The notes below the pieces were generated by a model. The model was not told where the DNA came from. It saw nothing but the letters and a program-made list of their open reading frames with translations, and did not search any database. Below, one piece after another: positions 10,377 to 38,130 of a stretch of DNA of 64,000 nt (its first letter is position 1; each line of letters begins with the position of its first letter). This stretch comes from Lingula anatina (lineage: Eukaryota; Animalia; Brachiopoda): assembly GCA_051362555.1 (NCBI GenBank), contig CM120642.1, forward strand, positions 23,746,001-23,810,000, read 5' to 3'. Position numbers and translations under genes: made by a program.

Positions 10377-10778
10377 TTAAATATGAGATCTTGAAAAAGT
10401 TACACTTAATGGAACCTTATAGCATGAGCTAGCACAGAAAATAATGACCAAAAATAAATCGAAATTTATTTTGCTTTCAATAATTACATCTTATCATTTC
10501 CCACTACAATGGGCTAACAAATATACCAGAGCAAGTACAGATGATTGTAGAAAATCCTTCTTATTTTATTGTGCCCAATATCTTTTCGAATTAGATTCCA
10601 GTTTGAACAAGTTATCTTGGTAGAAGCTAGAATTATTAACTTTTGAGTTACTTTAAGTTTATACGTCCACTTTTTCAGAAGTATATTTTAAATCCTAAAA
10701 TACACTACATATCGAGTTTCAACATTTTAATCTATGACCCTTGTACTCAACATTTTCATCCAAGACCCTTGTACCTAC

Positions 10779-11325
10779 CTCTCTGCCCCATGCCTCCTAT
10801 CCGTCCCATGCCTCCACCCTGGTTGCCAAAACCACCCATGCCTTGGCCTTGCATTCCTTGCTCTGCAGCCATCCTATTGTTGGTAGCACCTTTGATCAAA
10901 TTGGCCACTGCCGCCAGCTGTCTGGACACATCATCCCCCATCCTGTTAGCGCCTCCCAACTGACCCATTCCACCTTCACCAAACCTAGCGCTGTTGTCTG
11001 GGCTGAGTTGACTCTCTTGGTTAAAGCGGCTCATTCCCACGCCGCCCCCATGACCTTGCATTCCCATTCTGCTCCCAACTTCCTGCTGCATTCTGCGATT
11101 GAATCCCTGCCCTCCTCCCATCATGCCTTGCTGTCCCATCCTCCCCTGGGACATGCCCATTCCAGACATCCCCATCTGGGACATCCCCTGTCCCATCATG
11201 CCTTGCCCCATCTGATTCCTGGAGCTTTTGTGGCCATAGTCAAAGGTCTGGGCTGTGTTATTATGTCCGTATTCATAGGAGTCTCCGCTGGGAGCATTTC
11301 CCAGTATTCCTTGGCCTCTGAACAT
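10779..11325 (-). CDS. Matrin-3/ZNF638/RBM20-like protein, coding exon 1 (Gly/Met/Gln-rich low-complexity N-terminus)
   Basis: Acceptor tttcag at 11337, GCCATG start at 11325, donor gtaggt at 10778. MFRGQGILGNAP...FDYGH...GMGQ repeats. Joined CDS 11325-10779, 9697-9495, 7721-7625, 2161-2106, 1863-1741, 1434-1375, 1114-948 stays in frame (~417 codons in window). Family call rests on the DYGH and YDPxxPT motifs and the matrin finger; the exact ortholog is uncertain. Confidence 0.85.
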
Positions 11326-11450
11326 GGCGTTACTGCCTGAAATAAAATGATGAATATTAAAATTAAAAAAAAAAAAACCAACTGATTTTGCACTTGGCAA
11401 AGATAAAGCAAAGAAATGTGGAAAAAAAGTTTAAAACAATAAAAGACCTG

Positions 11451-12596: not shown

Positions 12597-12910
12597 CGCT
12601 AATCCAATATGGCCACTGGAATGGCGGTCAACAGGTGCGTCGAGATTAACAAATTTATATTTTTCAGAAATTAGTAATGAATTATGAAAAATATGCTTCT
12701 GGTCGGAAAACAGTTCGACAAAAAACAAGTTTTAATTTTAGTATAAGATATTGATTACGAAAATTACACTGAAATGTAATTGATGTTTGACCTAGTTTAG
12801 AGACTAGATAGAAACCGTAAACTTTCAAAAGGTGTGCATGTCATGGAGTAGTAGTAGTAGGACGGGTGACGTTTTGTGGGGTTGAAAAACGTCTAAACCT
12901 GAACTGCAAC
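12597..12910. promoter_or_regulatory. Probable bidirectional promoter, including the non-coding first exon of the minus-strand gene
   Basis: Minus-strand donor GCG|gtgagt at 12597/12596, YY1-like ATGGCGG at ~12622, locally raised CpG; SAPCD2 ATG is at 12911 on the opposite strand. Confidence 0.55.
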
Positions 12911-13667
12911 ATGGATCACCAGCCAAAATCTACTTTAGATGGTCTTCCTAAGCAGTTCATTGCTTCGCTGAGAACTTTATTCGATATTTTAGACGACGAT
13001 AAAACCGGTTTAGTTCGACTTGGTGAGATAGAAACTCGGTGGAAAGAAGACGGCATCAAAGAGCTGCCGCGGGGAGTAATTGAAGCACTACGCAAGGTAA
13101 CACCTCCTAACGGCCTGCTCACCTTTGAACGCTTTGTGGCTGGACTCAAGATTGCCCTCTTGCGAAACAGAGGTGACCATAAGGATAAAGAAAACCAGGG
13201 TCCACTGAAATCCCAAATAAATGGACCCAGCACAAATAGGAGCAATGGTCTCACGGGCCAGAGACAGATATTCGGAGGTCAGAAATCTCACACTGCCTCA
13301 CAGAACGAAAGAACTGCTACCGTCCGACCCATAAACAATGCCATGCAACAACGTGCCCTGAGTATGCCTCATCTGGCAGACCCCGGGAAGGGGAGCAACT
13401 CGGACATGGATGAACCCACCTCGGCGCCCCTGGGACCAAGGAACGAATGGTTCGTGCAGTCTCACAACCAAATCCCCGAGCAGAACCGTTTCCACCACAA
13501 CCCTGCATTACCCAAGGATAAGACTGGTATTGTGGCCACTTTGAAAAGCTGGCAGAGAGATAAGATGGGTGGAACGTCAGTTGTACAGTCGGAGTTTCAG
13601 GGTAACCGGCCAGTAAGCACCAGTAATTTACCTGAGAGCAGGGGGGCTGTGCCAGGGGCTGCAACAG
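12911..13667 (+). CDS. SAPCD2: Suppressor APC domain-containing protein 2, coding exon 1
   Basis: AACATGG start; GLPKQFIASLRTLFDILDD...LTFERFVAGLKIAL is the characteristic SAPCD2 N-terminus; donor CAG|gtgag. Joined CDS 12911-13667, 20290-20405, 21752-21898, 22706-22807, 23096-23218, 23589-23717 = 1374 nt, 457 aa. Confidence 0.92.
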
Positions 13668-16600
13668 GTGAGAAACAGCTGTGCAAGAGACTTTTAATAC
13701 TTATAAAACTACCACTCCACTCAGCTCTGGAATAATAAAAGTTTTCTTTGAAGTTATGGAAGCTAGGTGGAAATAATTGTTTACAATAATAACAGTGTAA
13801 TATACATTGTAAATCATGTTTTTAATGTATTTTAAACATTTGTTTTGGTACACTTGACAGCTAAGCAATTACTTGTAAACACAATGTTGCAGTTGAAATA
13901 AGTATAGATTTGTGTTGTATATTAACTCATTAAAATTTACAGTGAGATCACGTAAATAACAGTCCCATCGTCACTTTAAAAATAGAAATTAAAAAAAAAG
14001 CAAAATAACTTTTAAAAAATTCTACATGCTTATTTAATCAGAGCCAGTGCTGTATGATTTTAATTGTAGTTGTAAAACAAACTGTGCCTCATTATATCAT
14101 TAGAAGTTGTGTCTGTGGAAAGATTGGTAACGGCTGGAATCTTCAAACATGAAAATTGCTTCAGTTATACTTTAGAAAGACTCATCAATCATGGGAACAT
14201 AAGAAATAAAGCTATAAAAGTCAAAATGACTTCCGTACCTCAAGCTGTTCATTTGTAAAGAAGCTAGAATAAGCTTCTGTGAAATACTGCCACAATAGTT
14301 GTTTTCAAATTTAACAATCATAAAAACCGGCACATGAAGTAAAGTGGATCATCTTTTTCTTTCCTTGGCATATATCTGACTTAAAAGTATAACCCTCACC
14401 CACTCCCCTATCCAAAATAATGTGATGTTTATGGTATTCAAAAAATTATTATTGTATGATTTTTTTTACCTTATAAAATTTTTAATGTAAAGTCATATTA
14501 CTACAGGTTATCATCAGTATCAGTATACTCACTCAGTATATTTCTGAGTCTGCCCATGTATATAATAACCCTTATATTATTCTTATTTTGTATTTTACTT
14601 TTTTTAGTCAGTTTAGTGCAACACTTGAAAAACTGTGCTATAAAATCTTTATTGTTAAATTAAATAGTGTGACTGAAGTTTATGTACAAAAATGCTACAC
14701 CCATGAAGGCATATAATTCTAATGGATGATATTATGTGACACACTCAGCTTTCAGCCTAAAGAAGTAGTACTGAACAAATTTTTTGACAGAGGTGGTGAA
14801 AATATGTGAAATATGTTATATTTTTCTGAGCTAAATAAGCAAATATTCAGCCTTTGGCTAAATTTTAAGTATGCTAAACAATCACAGGATGACATAAAAG
14901 TCGTTTCACTTTTTACATTTATTATAAGGGCAGTTGTGCAAAGACTGTTCCACTATCATCTGGTCCCCTCATAATTAGCCACCATGGCTGATTAATGTGG
15001 TGTTATTTCAGCAGGGAGATTGTTCTATGGCACTTTGTTAAAGAACTATACAGGATTAGATCAATACTGCAGTTGGACCCCTAGACTTGATCAATGAAGT
15101 TCAATACTTGAATATGGTCTGTGAGGACAACCTGGGGGTAAAAGAGAAAGTTGGATGAAGGGTCAAAAATCTGGTATTTGTTGGGGTTACTTTTATTCTT
15201 TTTGGTAAAGAAAAGGACATTATCTTATCCTTTTTTAAAACAAAGACTTTTTATTAAAGCAACAGCCCCTAGTTTCTTTTACTAGTAATTAGTCATTAAT
15301 TTAAGAATAGAAGTGCAGAAAGAAAAAACTTCCTTGCATTGGAGGAGACAGACAAATAAAAGCACAAGATGACAAGGTTGGATAAATGTCTACTAGCTAG
15401 CAAAAACTGTTGGAAGTGGTGAAGTGTCACCCACTGTCCTGTAACAGCTGCTTGTAATGGCTGGACACTTGCTGGACCAGACTCATAAATCTGACAGGCC
15501 AGTAAGGAGTGTGTGTGTGCCCTTTTGGGCATGAAAAGATACACTCTTCAAAATATGATCCAGTTTCTATGTTCATTCAACTAATGGGGTAAAAAGTACC
15601 ACTTTTTTTTTTTTTTTTAGAAAAAGAACTCCAATTTGAAATGTCTGACTACAGGTCTGTCTGACCATGTTGTTTTCAGTAACAAGACCCTTCAAAGGCA
15701 AGTTTTAGATCTTCGGCTGATTACACGCAGTCTATTGAGCAAACAAACTCTGTAGAAACTGATACCTCAACTTTTGCTCTATAATTTCATGGACATGTAA
15801 GCTTTCATTTCAATGACAAAAAGGGAGGGAAATTTAGCATTTTTGAAATGAAACCAAACACCATACAGCTATACAAATACAGCCATTATGGGACTTGATT
15901 GGCTTGCTTTCATATGAAATCGACATTCTTTTCTCCTGAAATGAACATGTGAAATTGACATTTAAATTTATGTCTGCATGGTCCTGTTACAACAATACTA
16001 GTACTTTTATGTGGCCCTTGATGTGTTTTATTTTTTTACACAATGTGAATTGTGTATACAAATTACTGCCTTATTTGTTAAGAATAGAGGTGATCCAGGT
16101 ACAGGGCCTGAGTCACCGTGAATGGCTTAGAGTAAAATCTTTGTACTGACTTGGAGTAAAATGTTTGCATGTGTGCTGCCTTTATCATCTTCCACTAATT
16201 GAAGCCACAGTCAGGCAAGGACTGTGTTTGACCTGCAATAAGTGTCTCTAATTACACTTGTTATACTGATTTAAGGACTCTGTTAAAGATGAAAGAAAAT
16301 ATTTACCCATTAGTAATGTCATTAGATATAAGACAACGTTACTGATAAAAGACTGGATCTGTCTTTAATCTGGTACTCTGACAACTCAAGTTGGGCTGAT
16401 TTTCTGTCCTAACTAATTCTGTCTGAGCAGTCCTATGTACTTAAACAGAATCAAAATATTAGTGTTCTCCTTGATATTATGATTAATAATTTATAAACCT
16501 ACATATTTCTAATAAATCTAAATGATTGAGATCACCAAGTACATGTAGCCATTTAACTCATTAATATCAACATTTAGGATACAAATCTTGATCGAAGAAC

Positions 16601-26661: not shown

Positions 26662-26825
26662 CCGGTGTAACGAAACTGAGGGTCCTTGTAACAGAAAGTC
26701 CACCCTCCACATAGTTATCGGATAGTCTGTCTTAAGTGGGTCAAAATCTAGGGCGAGGCTCACCTGTATAAATGAAAATGAAGCGGACTCTCTATCATGG
26801 GGGACTCTTTGTCACGTTACACCGG
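26662..26825. mobile_element. Small MITE-like element with 11-bp TIRs
   Basis: CCGGTGTAACG ... CGTTACACCGG; TSD not clear. Confidence 0.5.
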
Positions 26826-27428: not shown

Positions 27429-27639
27429 CAGAGGCGGATTTGGGGGGGGGGGGGGGGGGGGGGTCAGGGGGTTTAACCCCCGCCCCCTTCGATTTCTGAA
27501 AAAATCGCACCAATGGTCCCATCATGAAATTAGATATTTGACTAGCTGAATCATAGTTTTAAACCATACCAGACGGCACTGTTCGCCCTCTTAAATACCA
27601 TACCCCACGCAAATAGGCCTAATCCTGGATACGCCCCTG
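27429..27639. mobile_element. hAT-like MITE with 5-bp TSD (CAGAG) and internal poly-G
   Basis: CAGAG|CAGAGGCGGAT ... GGATACGCCCCTG|CAGAG. Confidence 0.75.
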
Positions 27640-27987
27640 CAGAGGGATACTTGGCATTACGTACAACTGATTTTGATCGCACTTTTGACACTGTTTCCTA
27701 ATGCTTCACCCTACTAATGCTCTCCCCGCTTTATTTACTCCAAATATTGAATCAATAATGTTTTCAGATATTATTTCGAAAATCTGTTAAAACTTTTGAA
27801 GGTGATCACACATTCTAATCAGGCACAACTTTGTTACATTTTGATGCAAAAAATGTGCTATAAATCTAGCACAGGCGTTTTTTCTTTCGGACGATTCTTT
27901 TAAAGAAACACTATAACTGCATTACTGTAATACAGGCACTGGTTTTATTCAAAACCAACAGCATGTAATATAAGTACCCAAATAACA

Positions 27988-29612
27988 TTATGTCCAGTTA
28001 TATTTGAATATTTTCACCCAGCCGTCCCTCTGTCCACAGACAAGGCCGCCATTAGAAGTCGTAGAGAGGGCAACCGGTGTCTGGAGATTTTCCTTAACGG
28101 TCAGAAACTGACCTAGACTGGCCCCAGACGGAGACAGGCGATGAATGCAGTTGCTTTCCATATCGGCCACGAACACAAAACCATCCGCGTCGACGCATAC
28201 GCCGTCCACACCGTACGGTCTCTCGGGTTGCGGATATTCTTCACGCCTGTTGTATACAAAAAGCGGCTCTCCGCTCTCGTTTTGATACGAGCGCACCACA
28301 CTGTCATTTGGATCCGAGATTATCACACGGCCACTGTTCGATATTGCTATAAACGGCGCAAAAGAAAACTGGCATCTCATTTTGTAAACGAATGACCATA
28401 AAAGGGACCCCTGCTTGTCGTAACATTTTACGTCACTCGAGGTGCCCATGCTTAAGACTACTATTAAGGAGATTCCGTCCGTTGCCATGGCAACCGGTGC
28501 TACGCAGGGGAAGGAAAACCTGGCATATCCATTGACTGGATGTATTTGGATTTCTTGCGTCCGTTTGCACCAGACGGAGGTGACGATTGTCCCGTCTCGA
28601 AAATGGCCGATACCTGTCAGACCCCTCACAGTCAATTCTCGACGTTTTCTCCCGTATTTGTCGCACACGATGACACGCCCAAGTACGCTGTCACTTCCGC
28701 CACCCCTTGTGCCTAATGCCAAGTCCCCTGTCGCCATCGCGTCCAGGTAAACCAGACACTCGTCCTGCTTAGAGAAAGGCACTTTGAATTCGCGAAGTAA
28801 TTTGGGTGATAGGGAAATTGTTCCGAACGCTTTTTCAAGAAAAAATGAAGCACTGGGGCTGCATCGTAAATATAACTCCGGGCTCGGTTCTTCTAGAGTG
28901 GACATGTGCTTTTCAGATTTGTCTAGTTTGGACAAAATATCCTGCTTGTTTAAAAGTAGTTGAATATCTGAATATGAGTCGATGATTTCGGAAAATGCAT
29001 CTAGCTGAGGCCCGTTTGTTGTGTTTTTCAACGACTCGGTGCGTTTCAGTTGCGCCGATTGGATTTCTGTCCCCTTTTTGCATACACTTTTTGCAACGTC
29101 TCGCAGCAAAAGAGAGAGTTCCTCGACTCTTTTCTCAACCTGTATTTCAGCTAGTTTTGTACTTTCTTCCAATTTATTTATCACATCTGTCTGTTTAGTG
29201 TCATTGTCCTTGGCAGACGACGCTGCAGATGGCGAAGCTTTCAGCACGCTCATCCTTTGCGCGATCGACATTCTGAGTTCACTTGCCGCCTTGTTGATTT
29301 CAACGCAACTGTGATCTAAATGGTCAGAAAGCTTACACATAAGGCAGATTAACTGCCCACACTCGACACAGTAGAGTTTGCATTTTTCGTTAACGTGGTC
29401 AGTGCAACTGGTCATCTCCCTTTCTTCTTTAGCGCCCTGCAGCGTGTCCGGCGGGGCCTCTCCGATGAGATAGAGTTTGTGGTCTTTGCTTAGTTTCATT
29501 CCTCGGTGGCAGAGGGCGCATCGCTTGCACATACTCTCGTTGCATTCTACACACGTTTCCTTCGCCAGTTCTCGTCTGCCCACCGAGTCACATGGATCGC
29601 AGTAAGCTATTG
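27988..29612 (-). CDS. CARD-TRIM-NHL-like protein, coding exon 2: B-box1, B-box2, coiled coil, NHL-like beta-propeller
   Basis: Acceptor tttttctag at 29613, phase 1, in frame with ORF 27988..29583. B-box1 CDPC...CVEC...CKRC..CH...H; B-box2 CTDH...CVEC...CLMC...H..H; NHL-like repeats IAISNSGRVIISD, GVCVDADGFVFVAD; AATAAA about 40 nt past the stop (27944-27949). Confidence 0.9.
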
Positions 29613-29961
29613 CTAGAAAAAATTGAATGACATTCGTAGAATAGCGGATGATGAACTTAAAGCATTTGGAAAAGTAAAAATTTTAGGTACATCAAGAGGC
29701 ACATCGTCTTAAGGGCAAAGGGACAGATTTTTTAGTATCAAAATAAACCAAGTCCCTATTTGTCGCTGACTATTTCATAACTTTAAATTACCAAATTAAA
29801 AATCAAAAAGAAAAAGAATCCGAGAAGAAGAAGAAAAAAAGAAAGAGAAAAGAAGAGAGCGATAAAGAAGATAACACATACTAAACAAAAAATGACACAT
29901 GTTGCTTAACCAACGTAAATCTTATACATAAATGTCTTTTAAATAGAAAAAATCGACATAC

Positions 29962-30274
29962 TTAATTTATCGCCACACAAGTCCTCGGCACTGACACTAG
30001 TAGCACGTAAACATGCTGATAGATGGGGCTGGTGCTCGTCTAAAGCCCTAAGAAATTGGTGAAAAGAGTCCTTGTGGTCTCCAACCATGATTATCTCCAC
30101 TAATTTCCTGACCCGATCACCCCTGGTCACTTCGGCTTCGATTCTTTCAACATCGTCTGTTTCCAGAATACCATTTTGATACAGCAAATCCAAAATCCCA
30201 AGTTTCGGGTCTAGCATATCTTCTCGCAGACTCGCAAATCGTTTGCGCAATATCGCCCTCTGCCGTGGCTCCAT
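29962..30274 (-). CDS. CARD-TRIM-NHL-like protein, coding exon 1: CARD (death-fold) domain
   Basis: MEPRQRAILRKRFASLREDM...ILDLLYQNGIL...ERIEAEVTRGDRVRKLVEII...SFHQFLRALDEHQPHL matches the CARD pattern; donor A|gtatgt at 29961 (phase 1) joins exon 2; upstream acceptor ttcag at ~30302 implies a 5' UTR exon. Confidence 0.85.
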
Positions 30275-31103
30275 AATGGTCTTCTGCTGGTTAATTCTTG
30301 CCTGAAAATATCAATTTGACGATCAATTAAACGACAAGTTGCGGCCGGGGACATTTATCTTCACCCGTTGAATGATATTCATCCGCTTTCTTGTTCATAA
30401 TTAAGGACGACTAACGAACCGAAAAGATAAAACAATATATTAAATACAGATAGCCGCATCTCTGCATGACGCCGGATCTATGGACCGTTTTGCGAGGAAA
30501 ACGGGAAGAAAATGTGGCAAGACAAAGGTCTTTATGCCTAGAGTATTAATAAAGACTGTAAGTTTGCCCCTATTCAAACATACCGTGTTACATCAAAATT
30601 TACTTGTACTTGAATACACAAAAATGATATCAATTCAGCACACGCGTAATTTCGCTTTTTTGATTTTATAAAAGAAAAGAAAAAAGAAAGAAAAAAAGAA
30701 AAACGCACAGCTTATTTGAGAAATATTTTAACCGACAAACTTATCAAATACTGAAAACAATCACATTTGCTGATCCCATCTCAATATTGGGATAAATATA
30801 TCCATCATCAAAGAAGTTGACAATTTTATTGTTGATAACGCGTATTCTTTTTGTCTGTTGACTGTTGGGGGGGGGGGGGGGGAGGGGAACCGCAAGCGAC
30901 CTGAGAGGACTTGTTTGGGAATCCAACTAGGCACGCTGACGAGAATGTAACACGCACTTTGAAATAATTCACTGTCAAATAGGTGAAAAACAATAAAAAA
31001 CAAAGATCATTGATATTATCTGCATCAAATTACAAAATCCCGCGATCGTTTGACGCACGAGCCAGGCCAATTGACGCACGTCCGGTGTCTGAGCCCTGGG
31101 CTC

Positions 31104-31114: not shown

Positions 31115-34100
31115 TACCTCCCCGAGTGCTTGACCAGTGAGTTGCTGCTGCTGGTGGTGGTGCAATAACTCAACCCTGTGACTAATGTGGTAGTCTTACT
31201 AACTTCAATACTCAAAATTATTATTACGCAACGACCAAGGGCACAGCGATAGGGTACGTGCACATGATTACATGATAAATACCACGCAGTGCCAAACAAT
31301 TTAGGCTGTCGCGCGCGCGAGTGTGTATGTGTGTGTGTGTTGGAGAGAGAGAGAGAGAGGAAGAAAGATGCGCTCTGTTTATTCTATAATGACATGCATC
31401 CCGCATTAAAAGAAGTGCCCATGACATTCGCGGCAGCGATAATTTCAATGCGTGTATCGTTGTTTTGATGCATAGACAGTGTAACTGTATCCTGTCACTA
31501 CCTGGACGTATGTTTTACAAAGCAAACATACATTGGGCATAATATAATACTGTTATGAATGAAAATAAATAAACGTGAACGTAAAGCCGATAAATAGGTA
31601 ACCTTTTATGAGCAACTGGTTTCAAATAATCGGAATACTTTCATCACCTGTGTTTATCAGTAGGATAATTTTAATCATGCAGCGTGTTTCTGAAAGGGTC
31701 AGCTATATTTGCATTCTGTTAATGTTAGTCTCCATTGACTGGCGAAAGTGTATCTATTAATTGCAAAATAATTCAGAAACAAAGTCCAGTATATATACGG
31801 CTAGGTAAGATACAGGAATAACGTGACTTAACCTATGGTATTTACCTGAATATATGGAGCTGTTCACTTTGTGCATACAGGGAAACACTTCGGCCATGTG
31901 TATATTCACCATGCAGTCACAGTACGGCTAGTGCAATACAGAGGTAAGTCTACATTGGTAACTCACGCCTGTGTGGCTTTGGTGCACCTTGGGTGAACCT
32001 GTATCTTGGTCTTGTAAGTCACAATCATTAATGAGCAGTGCTGTTTAACTAGGTATATAAACTGGTACTGTCCGTACTGTACGCTAATGTGTCGTAGATC
32101 TACGGTCAACAGATGGCCAGTATAGCCTGATATAGTGACCTTTCCTGTGGTCAGCAGGTCACTTCATACTCTCCACTGTTAATGTACACGGGATGGCTTT
32201 CTCTGGGGAATGTCCTTCCACCGTAAAATATTCACCAAGCTATTTGTCCCCAGTTCTCTCTGGCGAGTTGTAAAACGCAAACAAGCCTTATCAATCAGCA
32301 TATGTACAGGTTGCAACAGCCTATACGGCCTAAACACGCCCCTGTGTGCCTGTGCGGTAACAGACAAATAGCATGAGCACTATGTTTTGCTTGGGTATGA
32401 CTCAATACTCCACTTGACGCTATGATAAAGATGCTTTGTCATCCGAGCCACATATATTGTCGAGTTCACATTATCGGCCGGACTTGGGCTGATATGTCGA
32501 AACTGGGGAAATCTGTCATTTCGACCGAGAGGGTGAAACGCGGGTACGTTATCAGCGTGATAGCTTTCCGCAAAGCGTATGGTCCCATTTCCACTGCCTT
32601 ACTACAATTAATGCAACGCAGTTGGAAGAAATGCCTTTCAAACCACAATGACGCGGCTGAACGACCACATTCACATTAGTGAAGGGGAAAATGTTATGAC
32701 GCTTTTCTTTTTTTGTATGAATTTGAATTTAGTTTCAATAGAAAATGGATGTTTTAAACCCGGTATGAAAGCGAGCTAATTATTGTATTATATGTCGCCT
32801 TTATTCGAAGCTAGCTCGGTTGTGAAAAGTCAACTGAGTCGTAGGGGTCAGGCTGTCACCTTGTCACCTGTCATATTTACATGTGCGTAACAAAACAGAC
32901 CATTGCGCCACCTTTGTCATTATTTTAATATCATTAATGATAATCTATCATACATAAAACGTTTATGGATATTTTGGTATGGTCAGGTTGTTTGAGGAAA
33001 ATAATATAGGCCAACATGTACGTAGTATTTGTATTACTTATTATGCTAATGAATACTCCTGCCCCCCCCCCCCTCCCTCACAACCCCCGAAAAATCTTTG
33101 CAAGTGGTGCTTCTTCTTACATATGCATCCTGTCGTACATCCATGTTTTCAATATTCTCTGTCTGAAACACGCGTACGCTTAAAGAGACCGGATATTGAG
33201 TGTGTGTGTTTGCGTACGTGCATGCGAGTGCGCGTGGCAAAGGTTGAAAGAGAGAAGTCCAATTTTTTCCGTTGTGGAAACTTATTTTTTTGACGGCCCA
33301 ACGGCGTTTGCGTTCAACCTAGCGCGTCTACATCTTTACTATGTGATCATCTTCGTTATTCTTATGTGAAAATAGTTTCATTGGATCTTAGTGTTTCGAT
33401 AGTCAGAAAGTTTTCTTTTATGATAGATCCAGAAATTTGATTTACCTGTTGACTGTTTCGTCTGTTCGTTTTTTTTTTTTTTTTTTTTTTTTTTTTCGAA
33501 AAACAAATAAATGACTAACCTAGAAGTATGCCCGACGGGTGAAATCAACAGCAACTCTATTTTTGACAGGTATTGTTTTTGTTTGTGAATCAATCTAGAC
33601 GACACCACTACTTTTTGTTAATCTAAAGTAATACAAACCCCTTTCCATCCTCAGGCTTATGGGGTGTTTGGACGCTCACAGATAGACATAAAGCCACTAA
33701 TATCACGTACACATAGTTTTTAAATAATTCAGTTATGCTTAAACACTGTAAACTTGATTTATTTTTCCCGGGGGTCCAATTGCACAGCTTACGATTGCAG
33801 TATGCAGTTTGAATGCACAAACAGTTCTCCCAAGTTTGAGAAAAGAGTGCAAAAGAACAAAAACATGCTCAATATTGAGCGGTTGAAATGGTTTCGCAAA
33901 TAACTTTAGATCGAAACTTGAGCTTGACAATCATACCGAAATTGTGTTCCATTTTCTTTTAGGGTTAACAGTCAATAGCCCTCCTAAATATACAGTGTTG
34001 TAACTATTATATGTTTTAATATATAACATATAATAGTTTCAATACTGTATATTATTATATGCTATGAATCAGGCGCAGGGTTCCTTTCGATTAGCCGGCA

Positions 34101-34193
34101 GTAAATGCTCCGTGGTATCACCCAAGGGCCAAAATAAGGTGTGACAAAATCAACGTCATCTCGTTACCGGGGCGAACTCCGCATCTAAAAGTG

Positions 34194-34398
34194 CATTCCC
34201 ATAGATTAAGATCGATCCATCTAGATCGACCCAGCTCCCTGGGGGTTCAGGCTAAATTGATGTCAGCCGAGCGCGCACGGTAGTTAATTACCCTCTTTCA
34301 GCTTTTAGTAGGCGGGACAGACGCTTAAGCCGGCTAAGCTGACAGTAATCTAGTGAGACTCCCCACAGGGATAGATCGATCTAAAATCTGTGGGAATG
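34194..34398. repeat. Inverted repeat or MITE-like element within a GC-richer island
   Basis: CATTCCCATAGATTAAGATCGATCCATC ... GATAGATCGATCTAAAATCTGTGGGAATG (~28-bp imperfect arms). Confidence 0.6.
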
Positions 34399-35930
34399 GG
34401 GTCTAAAACGACAGCGCCAGGATCCTTTACATACACCAGTTTCCCTTGCATTTTTGCACTTGTCCAAGATGGTATAACAACAGCAAGATAATATTTCTTT
34501 TGTTTATGAATCTCGTTGATCTTGCACTTTCTCGGCGGTTCGTGCCTTGTGGAACATAAACGGACTGGGATAGTGTACTCTTTCAGGGACGGATCCAGAG
34601 AAATTTTCTTACAGTCTTCCAAACGATCTTTGTTCTGATCCACTCTCTATTTTTGACCGTCTTCCGACAGAAAAAAGTTAGATACTCGTCAATGTAAATT
34701 TGAAAATCTGACCGTCTTCCAGAAGACCCAGAAGACGGCAGCAATCCACTCCTGTTTTTTTTTTTCGTTTTCCTACTTTTTTTACGAGTTTTTAACCGCG
34801 TTGTCGGAAAGGGAATAATTACGACTTAGAACCCGAAATGTCAAAATGCTATTTAATTAGAAAAAACGCTTGAATGTTTTTGTAATTGGCTAACCTTACA
34901 CTCTTTGTCAATTTTTACAGAGCTCTGTGTTTACATGATAGTAATTTAAACTTGAAGGGACAAACGCTGTGTCCATATGTGTTTGACAAAACCAGGTACT
35001 AAAGAGAATCGGAAGGATAGTTTCTACACCCCCCCCCACCCGTCAATAAATTTATATCATAAATGTATGCATGGTAACTAATTAGAAAATAATATATGTG
35101 CAAGAAGCAACTGATATTTATAATTTTTTACGGTATCCTATTATAAAAATTTTATTATTTTTTATCTATTTATTTACCTAGTTTTTTTAATTAAAATTTA
35201 TGTTGTGATTATTTGTCTATTTGGATTGGTGCAGGTGAGAAAGCCCGAAGCACAGCTAACAGATTTCACAAAAAATATGCAGGGTCAAGGTCACGTATAT
35301 TCCACATTTAGTTTTAATATTGCATGTTTAGATCTGCAAGAACGACGCAAAATTCATCTCAACGTGTACTGAGGAAGTGTTGAGGCACAGTCAACGAACA
35401 CTGCTGATATTTCATGTGAAATTGTGAAGGCCTGTGTACACATATCTAGACTGGCGCAGGAAAGAGCCACAGTGACGGTCTGATTTGATCCGACTTCCCC
35501 GACTGCAGGTAACAGTATGCATTCACTGAACATGTATTTGCTCTCTCTGTGCTATCGTTGCCATCATTGTCAATCAGGAAGCAACTAGTGGATCCTTTTT
35601 GCCAAAGCAATGAAGGGGAACTGGGGCGTAGGGACGTACAGTACATTAGTCACATTTCAAAATGTATTCAATGGAAACTCTAATGCAGTCGAAATTAACC
35701 TAAAACTCTTATCAGCCGTCTTATATGTCGAACTGTTCTTATTTGAAGCCCATAAACTAAAGCAGGCATTCCACGGAACAGATGTATTTCAGACAAATAT
35801 TGACTCAACTTCTAGTCATCATGATGTGGTGGTGAGATCGGTAAGATACAAGGTCGCCGTGGAATGCTGATAAATTATGTTAATTTTTGTTGCCATGGTA
35901 TACATTTCTTCCTGGCGTTCACTTATGCGA

Positions 35931-35961
<31 letters not shown>

Positions 35962-36672
35962 CAGTTCGCGTGGAGCTCATCCACGTAAGGCTTACATTAC
36001 GTTCTACTGTCGAGATACAACGCTTCATTTCATGGTATTTTAGGGCAGCTTGTTCTCTCCTTATGAATGACAGTTTTTGTACGAATTGACTGCAATTCAC
36101 TGGCAGATCTGGGAATATGAAATGTGGTAGTAGAATGATCGCAAAAGCTCTTTGTTGCAATCAGACGGACCTTTTGGAGAGCCAAGGAGGAACACCCCCA
36201 CCCCACCTCACCATCCCCTTTTTATTAAGAACAAGCCAATTCATTTTTTCGATATATTTTTTTTAATGTAGGACGAACCCCACTGATATTCATAAGAATC
36301 ATGTTTACTGTCTATATGAAAAAAACCGAAGGTTTGAAAAATAACATGGAAATTTCCATTGAAAGTTTATCTTATTTTTAATTTTATATGTAATCTCACC
36401 AAAACGCGTGAATTTACTGCACGATTGAGGTCACGACTTCCTCCCAGTTGCCAAGTTTCAATCAGAGCCGGTATTGATACGAAATTTTCTGGCGATGGGG
36501 GTTAAAAATTGCCCTATTAACGTATTAAATAAAATGAGTTTTCAAAATGTCAATTTCATTTTTGAGAAGGGAATTTTAAAGAGGAAAACTATTACAGTTT
36601 AACTTTTTATTTTCTTTTTAGGCCTGACGAACATCAAAACTGTCGAGCTACATTACCGGGTAGCCAACCAAA

Positions 36673-38130
36673 ATGTTCAGATGGTTCTGGCCAAGGCAGG
36701 AGGAGCCACCAGAGGGTGCTTTACGCAAGCTGGGCTGGGGGGAAAGCCTATTTATTGGATTTAGCAAAATCTTCAAGGGTGGCCATTTAAAATTTACCCT
36801 ATTCATGAAAACCAAGGTTGACATCACTCATGAAACCATGTACAAGGCTTTAGTTCAGGCGGCTCGGAGACACCCTCTTCTAAAATCTAGGATCAGTTAC
36901 AAAGACGGGAAGTACTACTATGTTCCTATGTTAAACTGGGAAAGTAACCTGGAGTTGGAGACAACTGTAAGTGACGACTGGCAGGAAGCTTCTGCCAAAG
37001 GGTTTCGTAGAGGTTTTAACGACGAAATCGGACCTTTATGGCATGCTTACTTGGTCGAAATAACAAGAAAGGGACAACAGGACGATGACAGCGCCGATGC
37101 CAAACACCCCGAGACAAAGAGCTACGCCCTTGTCCTTATGTTCAATCATGCCATAATAGACGGGAAAAGCGCGGCCGTAGTTTTGAACGACATTGTTCAA
37201 AGTTTGAACTCGATAATTGATAATGTTCACAACTACAGCGCCGAGGAAGAGCTGAAAGTTGCCCCACCCCTTGAGAACGCCTTGCTTCCCGGAGTGCGTC
37301 CTGGCATATGGGATTATGTGAAAATATTCAAATTCCTACGTCAGTTCTTGTCAGCAGCTAAAAATCCGTACACTGAGCTTTATCCAGCACGTATTCTTAG
37401 AGAACCCGATGTTGACAACGATATAACTAAGATTATTGATTTCTCTGTACCTATAGACCCCCTTCTCCAGCGATGTCGGGCTGAGAAAGTCACCATTCAA
37501 GCGGCAGTGACGGCAGCTTCGTGTTTGGCCATGCTTGATCTGCTGCGTAAGAAAGCCCCAGAGACGGAGAGACTACCCGCGCCATCGAGTTACGTGGTAG
37601 ATTTTCGACGATTCTGCGAGCCAGTAATAGAACCTCAGTTCATGGGGTTTTATGCCATATCAAACACCATGCCGCCACTCAATGTTACAGGAAGTGTTAC
37701 AGACAGCAAGGCATTCTGGGACATTGCCAGAGAAGCGTCTGCTGAAATACGCCGATACATTTCAAATCCCAAGGAACCAATAAAAACATTCCGCGTGATG
37801 ACCCAACTTCTTAACTTTGAATCCCTTGGCAAGAAAATGAATGAAGCTAAGGATACTGGGTTGCGTAACGGAGAAGCTTTTGGTATTTCGAACATTGGTG
37901 ACATTGAACCCTTATTTCCCGCTGGAAGAGAGGGTGCCACTGTAGAAGCAACGAAGGTATTATGGGCTACAAATGGCGCCATGTTTTGTTCCCCCTTCTA
38001 TCATTATTTGTTGTCCATGAGGGGTTTTCTGGTTTGGAGCCTCAACTGGTATCCGAATATTTCCACGGAAGAGGAAGCAATGGCGTATGCAGAGAAAATT
38101 CAGGAAGCACTGAAGAGTGCTGTCGACTGA
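36673..38130 (+). CDS. CoA-dependent acyltransferase, condensation-domain/alcohol acetyltransferase/PapA5-like, single coding exon, 485 aa
   Basis: N-terminal RKLGWGE, RHPLLKSRI, GPLWHA, catalytic HxxxDG (NHAIIDG), CRAEKVTIQAA, VDFRRF and C-terminal ISNIG motifs; acceptor ttttag at 36621 just upstream of AAAATG; ATTAAA downstream. Confidence 0.88.
   Translation: MFRWFWPRQEEPPEGALRKLGWGESLFIGFSKIFKGGHLKFTLFMKTKVDITHETMYKALVQAARRHPLLKSRISYKDGKYYYVPMLNWESNLELETTVSDDWQEASAKGFRRGFNDEIGPLWHAYLVEITRKGQQDDDSADAKHPETKSYALVLMFNHAIIDGKSAAVVLNDIVQSLNSIIDNVHNYSAEEELKVAPPLENALLPGVRPGIWDYVKIFKFLRQFLSAAKNPYTELYPARILREPDVDNDITKIIDFSVPIDPLLQRCRAEKVTIQAAVTAASCLAMLDLLRKKAPETERLPAPSSYVVDFRRFCEPVIEPQFMGFYAISNTMPPLNVTGSVTDSKAFWDIAREASAEIRRYISNPKEPIKTFRVMTQLLNFESLGKKMNEAKDTGLRNGEAFGISNIGDIEPLFPAGREGATVEATKVLWATNGAMFCSPFYHYLLSMRGFLVWSLNWYPNISTEEEAMAYAEKIQEALKSAVD

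What the first reader, a model, noticed from the sequence alone, without database searches (positions are those of the whole stretch)
27988..30274. CARD-B-box-B-box-coiled coil-NHL gene: a RING-less TRIM-NHL with a death-fold head (pyrin-analogous candidate immune sensor)
Seen: the ORF track shows two separate ORFs, but a 349-nt GT-AG phase-1 intron (29961-29613) joins them in frame into ~645 aa and completes B-box1 (CDPC). A CARD-like domain sits where TRIM proteins normally carry the RING. Established: vertebrate pyrin (TRIM20) replaces RING with a PYD death fold and nucleates an inflammasome; NHL propellers in Brat and LIN-41 bind RNA or protein. Inference: an independently assembled invertebrate receptor in which the propeller senses ligand, the B-box/coiled coil oligomerises and the CARD recruits a caspase or adaptor. 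The CARD occupying its own exon fits exon shuffling. I cannot tell whether this architecture is already described.
Basis: partly seen in the sequence, partly recalled or inferred. Interest (0 to 1): 0.8.

Follow-up and report, generated by a model that had tools for sequence, protein, structure and literature searches.

The report
CARD replaces RING in brachiopod TRIM-NHL
This lamp-shell (brachiopod) gene is spliced into one reading frame that has a caspase-recruitment (CARD) domain where its closest relatives have the ubiquitin-ligase RING finger, so it likely works as a clustering scaffold that recruits a cell-death or immune partner, a layout that amphioxus appears to have built separately.

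Summary
The 349-nt intron is spliced in RNA reads from 3 of 7 runs laid. The 645-aa product is identical to an existing Lingula anatina RefSeq model labelled 'TRIM71'. The head is a CARD by Pfam and by fold. It is followed by two B-boxes, a coiled coil predicted to form an antiparallel dimer and an NHL propeller. No RING was found upstream, but the first exon was not mapped. One paralog (28% identical) has the same layout, and the two nest inside RING-bearing TRIM-NHLs, so CARD likely replaced RING once. Amphioxus has a CARD-B-box-NHL family whose propeller is rejected as one clade with them (p-AU 0.005), which points to convergence. The propeller lacks the LIN-41 RNA pocket (2 of 24 basic columns) and looks constrained (13 non-synonymous vs 24 synonymous differences), which argues against a fast-evolving pathogen receptor. 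Best reading: a clustering-activated CARD scaffold. Ligand, partner and immune role are untested. I found no description in ten open-library searches, but could not read the main Lingula immune survey.

The parts
29962..30274 (-). Coding part of the CARD exon (ATG at 30274; aa 1-104 plus one base; phase-1 donor follows)
   Evidence: RNA depth and joint
30005..30274 (-). CARD (aa 1-90), helical death fold
   Evidence: Pfam CARD 39.6 bits; PDB sequence hits RAIDD, CARD8, NLRP1, Apaf-1 at E 0.002-0.03; model pLDDT 73.6; Foldseek TM 0.65-0.78 to CARD8, Apaf-1 and apoptosome CARDs
29613..29961 (-). 349-nt GT-AG phase-1 intron
   Evidence: sequence; spliced reads in X7, X8, X6
27988..29612 (-). Body exon: aa 105-645 and stop codon
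   Evidence: continuous RNA depth in X6, X7, X8
29479..29601 (-). B-box1 (C109-H149), eight Cys/His positions conserved
   Evidence: Pfam ANCHR-like B-box, below cut-off; invariant or near-invariant columns in A1
29311..29406 (-). B-box2 (C174-H205)
   Evidence: Pfam zf-B_box 28.2 bits, cut-off 24.1
28903..29298 (-). Coiled coil and return helices (aa 210-341), predicted antiparallel homodimer
   Evidence: helices in model; TRIM28 sequence hit over 9-265 of the exon-2 query; dimer model score 0.53 vs best control 0.00
27997..28809 (-). NHL beta-propeller (aa 373-643), without filamin domain and without the LIN-41 basic pocket
30275..30303 (-). Likely splice acceptor (AG 30303-30302) and 27-nt leader, in frame and open up to the ATG
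   Evidence: RNA depth ends in bin 30216-30324; the joint itself was not listed
31844..32100 (-). Candidate upstream exon ending at a CAG|GTAAAT donor (GT 31845-31844); a stop lies 6 codons upstream in the CARD frame, so it would be untranslated. Not proven; the upstream limit is arbitrary.
   Evidence: donor scan; trace depth 0.12-0.21 in bin 31844-32177 in X1, X7, X9 and zero in the bin below
27600..27987 (-). Transcribed 3' untranslated region with AATAAA at 27949 and 27735

Best explanation
This is an expressed, spliced, RING-less TRIM-NHL gene with an N-terminal CARD, likely born when a CARD head replaced the RING of a brachiopod RING-B-box-B-box-coiled coil-NHL gene, and it likely acts as a clustering-activated scaffold that recruits a CARD-bearing caspase or adaptor. 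Shown: splice, domain order, CARD fold, NHL fold, no RING in the 645 aa, one paralog of the same layout. Predicted: the coiled coil forms an antiparallel dimer, which would hold the two CARDs at opposite ends of a rod. Inferred from TRIM biology (my own knowledge of TRIM5/TRIM21-type activation, not from a call): when propellers bind a repeated or aggregated target, B-box contacts join dimers and bring heads together. In RING TRIMs this switches on the ligase; here it would seed CARD-CARD assembly. Inferred: the partner would be a CARD caspase bound directly, since Lingula is reported to have CARD caspases and GSDME and ASC is listed only for Craniata in the passages I read. The constrained, non-LIN-41 propeller suggests that the ligand is more likely a conserved host or microbial protein (guard-like) than LIN-41-type RNA hairpins or a fast-changing pathogen surface.
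For: Splice and expression. CARD. NHL fold nearest TRIM3/TRIM2/Thin, E 1e-16. Paralog P0003 aligns end to end, 28% identity, with CARD + B-boxes + NHL. Tree of the body without heads: the two CARD genes are sisters (96/95) inside a 100/99 clade whose other four members carry RING. Dimer model: score 0.53, best of 3 controls 0.00, runs agree in at least 85% of contacts, pLDDT at least 74, antiparallel register (263-278, 256-285, 252-289). The mark was reached by 21 of 30 solved homodimers and 0 of 23 monomers in the microbial test, and by 7 of 16 animal pairs; TRIM coiled-coil dimers are solved, so the pass may be from memory. Constraint: 13 non-synonymous vs 24 synonymous among 37 listed coding differences, omega about 0.16-0.22, p at most 1e-5; CARD 1 vs 3. 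Recurrence: 9 Branchiostoma proteins carry CARD + B-box + NHL and 7 carry CARD + B-box, among 120 listed hits; one clade with the Lingula pair is rejected on the propeller, p-AU 0.005. Downstream parts: PMC11508797 (passages) predicts CARD caspases, CARD-NLRs and GSDME in Brachiopoda. PMC8998645 (passages) reports death-fold exon grafting onto Lingula RLRs.
Against: No binding, assembly, caspase or infection data exist here; no partner CARD was tested. Only two Lingula genes were found, and the propeller is not hypervariable in the partial list (5 non-synonymous vs 13 synonymous), unlike an arms-race receptor family. Expression is low (12-135 reads laid per run; almost none over the body exon in X1), with no tissue or challenge labels. 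The first exon was not mapped, so a coding upstream exon is not excluded. Both CARD genes are long branches (1.7 and 1.2), so their sister status could be inflated, and the propeller test used a quick tree with a long amphioxus stem. The pyrin analogy is loose: pyrin is a RhoA guard controlled by PKN/14-3-3, and mouse pyrin lacks its C-terminal domain (PMC6698799, passages).
Confidence: 0.5

Rival explanations
1. Inhibitor or decoy: the protein holds a CARD partner (caspase, CARD-NLR or RLR) in a spaced, non-signalling state, like CARD-only inhibitors, and the propeller sets where or when it is released.
For: The predicted antiparallel dimer keeps the two CARDs apart. There is no catalytic domain. 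ICEBERG and ARC, both inhibitors, are among the fold matches. Low copy number and purifying selection fit a regulator.
Against: The best fold matches are activating CARDs (CARD8, Apaf-1 and its apoptosome partner), though fold rank does not tell function. An inhibitor does not need two intact B-boxes and a propeller.
Confidence: 0.22
2. Substrate adaptor for a RING paralog: it pairs with a RING-bearing TRIM-NHL relative and uses the CARD to bring CARD proteins to ubiquitination or autophagy.
For: Its closest body relatives in the same species carry RING (P0293, P0022, P0058).
Against: It is only about 25% identical to those relatives, and the homodimer model passes. No heterodimer was tested.
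Confidence: 0.13
3. RNA-binding or developmental TRIM-NHL like LIN-41/TRIM71 or Brat (the database label), with the CARD as an accessory head.
For: Source label 'TRIM71'. NHL fold matches include Brat, Mei-P26 and LIN-41. The propeller is mildly basic overall (pI 8.3). Brat binds RNA with a surface unlike LIN-41 (PMC5908797, passages), so RNA binding is not excluded.
Against: It keeps 2 of 24 R/K columns shared by five TRIM71-type proteins, has no filamin domain and lies outside the TRIM71 clade. The paralog's propeller is acidic (pI 5.2).
Confidence: 0.1
4. The main isoform is longer: an upstream coding exon (RING or another domain) joins at the phase-0 acceptor at 30302, so the protein is not CARD-first.
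For: The acceptor is strong and the frame is open to the ATG. The paralog's model has 49 extra N-terminal residues.
Against: No full RING pattern in any of the six frames of the window, and no RING core on the minus strand between 30300 and the next gene at 36664. The best-supported upstream donor has an in-frame stop 6 codons before it. The RefSeq protein starts at the same Met.
Confidence: 0.05

Closest known systems
Pyrin / TRIM20 (PYD - B-box - coiled coil - B30.2)
   Same: RING-less TRIM body with an N-terminal death fold; B-box and coiled coil proposed to oligomerise (PMC6698799, passages).
   Different: CARD not PYD; two B-boxes; NHL propeller not B30.2. The head sits about 18 aa from B-box1, with no long phospho-linker and no R-x-x-S-x-P-type motif there. 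Separate origin, from a TRIM-NHL clade.
RING-B-box-B-box-coiled coil-NHL proteins of Lingula and other invertebrates (XP_013381606.2, XP_013382276.1, XP_013410437.1)
   Same: Same body, 24-26% identity, same clade.
   Different: CARD in place of RING, so no E3 ligase domain.
Amphioxus CARD-B-box-coiled coil-NHL proteins (XP_035691998.1, XP_019626341.1, XP_066292619.1; auto-named TRIM32-like or uncharacterized)
   Same: CARD first, no RING hit, B-box, helical stalk, NHL propeller.
   Different: One B-box directly after the CARD and a long acidic linker. The CARD gave no BLASTP hit to the Lingula CARDs at E below 1, though it aligns at 20-29%. The propeller is in another clade. There are several copies, some without NHL.
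TRIM71/LIN-41, TRIM2/3, Brat, Mei-P26 (TRIM-NHL)
   Same: B-boxes, coiled coil and NHL propeller.
   Different: No RING, no filamin, no LIN-41 basic pocket.
CARD-headed sensors that bind caspases directly (NLRC4, CARD8, NLRP1, Apaf-1)
   Same: CARD fold, TM 0.57-0.78. A propeller sensor plus an oligomerising middle recalls Apaf-1 (my knowledge).
   Different: No NACHT, NB-ARC or FIIND; assembly would rest on a TRIM coiled coil and B-boxes.

Membership tests
CARD domain | Pfam CARD above curated cut-off | tested here: met
   39.6 bits vs 23.9
CARD domain | Helical death fold | tested here: met
   Model pLDDT 73.6; the Foldseek list is almost all CARDs, TM up to 0.78, probability 1.00, best E 2e-3. 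The alignment used held amphioxus CARDs.
CARD domain | Homotypic CARD-CARD binding | not testable with these tools
   No Lingula partner sequence was in hand
TRIM/RBCC E3 ligases | N-terminal RING finger | tested here: not met
   No RING in Pfam at E up to 1; no RING pattern upstream; first exon unmapped
TRIM/RBCC E3 ligases | One or two B-boxes with Zn ligands | tested here: met
TRIM/RBCC E3 ligases | Coiled coil forming an antiparallel dimer | tested here: met
   Model only; may reflect likeness to solved TRIM dimers
TRIM-NHL | C-terminal NHL propeller | tested here: met
   Pfam NHL 24.7 bits vs 20; Foldseek TRIM3/TRIM2 E 1e-16
TRIM71/LIN-41 | Filamin domain before the NHL | tested here: not met
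   No Filamin hit; helices run into the propeller
TRIM71/LIN-41 | Basic RNA-hairpin pocket | tested here: not met
   2 of 24 R/K columns kept; pocket described in PMC5908797 (passages). The columns were defined by conservation, not mapped on a structure.
TRIM71/LIN-41 | Clade membership | tested here: not met
Pyrin/TRIM20 | PYD head | tested here: not met
   The head is a CARD
Pyrin/TRIM20 | B30.2/PRY-SPRY tail | tested here: not met
   The tail is NHL
Pyrin/TRIM20 | PKN/14-3-3 phospho-linker between head and B-box | tested here: not met
   Linker about 18 aa; the only motif match lies in the propeller; simple pattern recalled by me
Pyrin/TRIM20 | Nucleates an inflammasome | not testable with these tools
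   Needs a cell or reconstitution assay
Amphioxus CARD-B-box-NHL family | Common descent of the propeller | tested here: not met
   AU test rejects one clade, p 0.005, log-likelihood 42 lower, 47 rows x 270 columns, quick tree

The most novel reading that the evidence does not exclude
Invertebrates have repeatedly turned TRIM-NHL ubiquitin ligases into NLR-independent inflammasome sensors by swapping RING for a death fold. In Lingula the propeller binds a clustered target, the TRIM rod assembles, and the CARD directly activates a CARD caspase that cuts GSDME, paralleling pyrin, with a second, separate invention in amphioxus.
Probability: 0.25. Interest if true: 0.8.

Novelty: new variant of a known kind. 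Interest (0 to 1): 0.52.

Why it matters
TRIM proteins turn clustering on a target into a signal, normally ubiquitination. A CARD in the RING slot would turn the same clustering into caspase or adaptor recruitment. Pyrin is the one example of a death-fold TRIM that I recall from the literature. Finding the swap inside a brachiopod TRIM-NHL clade, with RING sisters still in the genome, and a second build in amphioxus gives a natural, testable pair of cases for how inflammasome-like sensors can arise without an NLR. It also corrects the database label, since this is not TRIM71 and has no E3 domain. Until a partner or phenotype is shown it remains a domain-shuffling variant of the kind common in marine invertebrate immune genes.

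Tried and rejected
No whole genome is held for this window, so there is no genome-wide paralog count and no gene structure for the paralog or the RING sisters. No RNA holder was listed by the index; raw-read runs of the same species label were laid instead. Word-based homolog searches with the body exon and with aa 1-215 returned only the protein itself, plus one bacterial propeller for the body exon; they missed the known 28% paralog, so they say little. The ESM Atlas gave B-box/NHL clusters and listed none with CARD; it only holds clusters of 50 or more. tblastn of six proteins found no second TRIM or CARD copy in the window. The upstream joint was not listed in either lay (three reads per run are needed). 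In the full-length model the CARD had low confidence (pLDDT 40-63) because the alignment was mostly RING proteins, so it was refolded alone. Intron retention (stop about 7 codons into the intron) is rejected as the main form, since intron depth is zero. A second in-frame AG 6 nt downstream of the acceptor was not seen in reads. Artefact or pseudogene is rejected: open frame, spliced reads, no coding indels listed, synonymous excess. Earlier-finding look-ups by the full word set and by sequence found nothing. Ten literature searches listed no paper whose title, abstract start or passages I read describe CARD + B-box + NHL. In five held supplements of PMC2575513, 'NHL' was absent and zf-B_box appeared once in a sea-urchin domain list whose context I did not read. 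Gerdol et al. 2018 on Lingula immunity and the 2008 Genome Research amphioxus immune survey (recalled) were not held; they and their supplements could already list this architecture.

Full report
Observation. On the minus strand an ATG at 30274 opens an exon that ends at 29962 with one spare base. A 349-nt intron (GTATGT to TTTTTTCTAG) follows, and the frame continues from 29612 to the stop at 27988. The product is 645 aa with one terminal stop, and it is identical to P0001, a RefSeq model of Lingula anatina, XP_013387785.1, labelled 'E3 ubiquitin-protein ligase TRIM71'. Seven different RNA runs of the same species label were laid. The joint 29612/29962 was read in X7 (5 reads, 5 starts), X8 (3, 2 starts) and X6 (2, 2 starts), and not in X5, X1, X4 or X9. 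Intron bins 29671-29888 have zero depth in the four runs. In X4, X5 and X6 the first mate lies almost only on +, as expected for a minus-strand transcript in most stranded libraries. Expression is low. The reads differ from the window at many places (X7 and X8 are 90-99% alike), so they come from other alleles or populations; a very close paralog is not excluded.

Anatomy. The first exon scores Pfam CARD at 39.6 bits (cut-off 23.9), and its best PDB sequence matches are RAIDD, CARD8, NLRP1 and Apaf-1 CARDs. Folded alone with an alignment that included amphioxus CARDs it gives a helical bundle at pLDDT 73.6, and its Foldseek list is almost all CARDs, TM up to 0.78, best E 2e-3. The body exon has B-box1 (C109-H149) and B-box2 (C174-H205), with Cys/His positions conserved across 19 aligned relatives, long helices at 210-341 and a propeller at 373-643 whose closest solved folds are TRIM3, TRIM2 and Thin NHL domains. 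Two copies of aa 105-372 were modelled as an antiparallel dimer: score 0.53, best of 3 controls 0.00, at least 85% contact agreement, pLDDT at least 74. That mark was reached by 21 of 30 solved homodimers and 0 of 23 monomers in the microbial test, and by 7 of 16 animal pairs. TRIM dimers are solved, so the pass may only show likeness. CDPC lies wholly in the body exon, so the splice does not complete B-box1.

Is there a RING upstream? An acceptor at 30303-30302 lies 27 nt before the ATG with an open frame, and RNA depth stops there. No full RING pattern occurs in any frame of the window, and no RING core lies on the minus strand before the next gene at 36664. A CAG|GTAAAT donor at 31845 coincides with trace depth in three of four runs and has an in-frame stop 6 codons upstream; five upstream ATGs in the 255 nt examined would all stop before the main ATG. 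This suggests an untranslated first exon, but the joint was not listed, so it is unproven.

Relatives. phmmer against 1.84 billion representatives gave 5486 hits and listed 150. I scanned 85 of the 149 non-self hits with Pfam, leaving out mostly long NHL-repeat proteins, and all 153 proteins then held with a two-sequence CARD profile. Among the first 66, 44 have RING, 21 neither RING nor CARD, and 1 has CARD. In all, two non-self proteins have CARD. P0003 (XP_013391267.1, Lingula) aligns end to end at 28%. P0073 (CAH1272998.1, Branchiostoma lanceolatum) has three CARD-B-box units and NHL repeats. Searching with the last unit of P0073 gave 180 hits, 120 listed; 9 carry CARD + B-box + NHL and 7 carry CARD + B-box, all labelled Branchiostoma. 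More distant death-fold TRIM-NHLs could be missed by these searches.

Origin. In a careful tree of the body without heads (16 rows, 546 columns; P0151 went in whole because the cutting pattern failed), the two Lingula CARD genes are sisters at 96/95 inside a 100/99 clade whose other members (P0293, P0004, P0022, P0058) all carry RING. Both are long branches. In a quick propeller tree (47 rows, 270 columns) the Lingula pair sits with those RING proteins (98), and the amphioxus family sits in another group with TRIM71, TRIM3-like and an amphioxus RING protein (95). Holding all eight CARD rows together is rejected, p-AU 0.005. The two Lingula CARDs match each other (27%, E 1e-11), while neither gave a BLASTP hit to four amphioxus CARD proteins at E below 1. 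The simplest history is one RING-to-CARD swap in the brachiopod line and a separate build in amphioxus, which has a single B-box. The trees are midpoint-rooted and the sampling is what the searches returned. Grafting of death-fold exons onto Lingula RLRs is published (PMC8998645, passages), so the process is known in this animal. The exon here is not a symmetric 1-1 module, and I could not see the sisters' intron positions.

What the propeller is not. LIN-41 binds RNA hairpins through a basic pocket (PMC5908797, passages). Of 24 columns that are R or K in all five TRIM71-type proteins, this protein keeps 2 and its paralog 3. There is no filamin domain. The 'TRIM71' label is therefore wrong on RING, filamin, pocket and clade. 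Brat-type RNA binding is not excluded. Of 37 coding differences visible in the lay tables (40 rows shown per call; 100 and 97 further rows hidden), 13 are non-synonymous and 24 synonymous, with no stops: omega about 0.16-0.22, p at most 1e-5; in the propeller 5 vs 13. The gene is constrained, and this partial sample shows no arms-race signal.

Mechanism. I commit to a clustering-activated CARD scaffold (0.5). The predicted antiparallel rod would keep the CARDs apart at rest. Binding of propellers to a repeated or aggregated target, with B-box contacts between dimers, would gather CARDs and recruit a CARD partner. The clustering logic is from my knowledge of TRIM5/TRIM21-type proteins, not from a call. 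A computational survey reports CARD caspases, CARD-NLRs and GSDME in Brachiopoda and lists ASC with Craniata (PMC11508797, passages), so a CARD head could bind a caspase directly. Ligand, partner and outcome are all inferred. Rivals: decoy or inhibitor (0.22), adaptor for a RING paralog (0.13), RNA-binding regulator (0.10), longer isoform (0.05).

Comparison and novelty. It works like pyrin at the level of layout but is not a member: PYD, B30.2 and the phospho-linker are all absent (pyrin features from PMC6698799, passages). It is a TRIM-like NHL protein without RING. Ten searches of the open library and passages of PMC3503706, PMC8195603, PMC3137616, PMC2575513, PMC9334734, PMC12373286 and PMC8662601 showed no description of CARD + B-box + NHL. 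Two key surveys were not available, and the precomputed Pfam lists already carry these domains for the public records, so the architecture is visible in databases. Earlier AI notes of this scan mention a sea-urchin DEATH-headed TRIM-NHL, annelid CARD-NHL proteins and a TIR-coiled coil-NHL gene; I did not test them. If right, they make head-swapping on this scaffold a recurring theme and this gene less singular.

Verdict. Real, expressed and constrained; a new variant of a known kind with a clear, testable mechanism and evidence of convergence, but no functional data. Interest 0.52.

Noticed in passing
window 36664-38130 (+): A single 488-codon open frame with condensation/acyltransferase-type Pfam hits (PapA_C 30.4 bits at cut-off 30; Condensation 23.1 bits, below cut-off) and no PDB sequence hit at E 0.01. 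It lies head to head with the CARD gene, about 6 kb away. It may be an intronless acyltransferase; its origin was not examined.
   Followed up: partly
window 12821-13735 (+): Exon with the SAPC2 (SAPCD2) N-terminal EF-hand-like domain, 132.7 bits.
   Followed up: no
window 34182-34849: A highly transcribed dispersed repeat: depth up to about 130 with many different loose ends, and a part shared with 26670-26760.
   Followed up: no
P0073 (CAH1272998.1) and P0173-P0190, Branchiostoma: An amphioxus family of CARD-B-box-coiled coil proteins with and without NHL, auto-named TRIM32/TRIM71-like although no RING is listed. P0073, with three CARD-B-box units, may be a fused model of tandem genes.
   Followed up: partly
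P0003 (XP_013391267.1): The paralog has a 49-aa N-terminal extension before a Met that aligns with this gene's start codon, and an acidic propeller (pI 5.2 vs 8.3), which hints at different ligands.
   Followed up: partly
window 10738-11430: Overlapping open frames of 200 (+) and 224 (-) codons with no Pfam hit.
   Followed up: no
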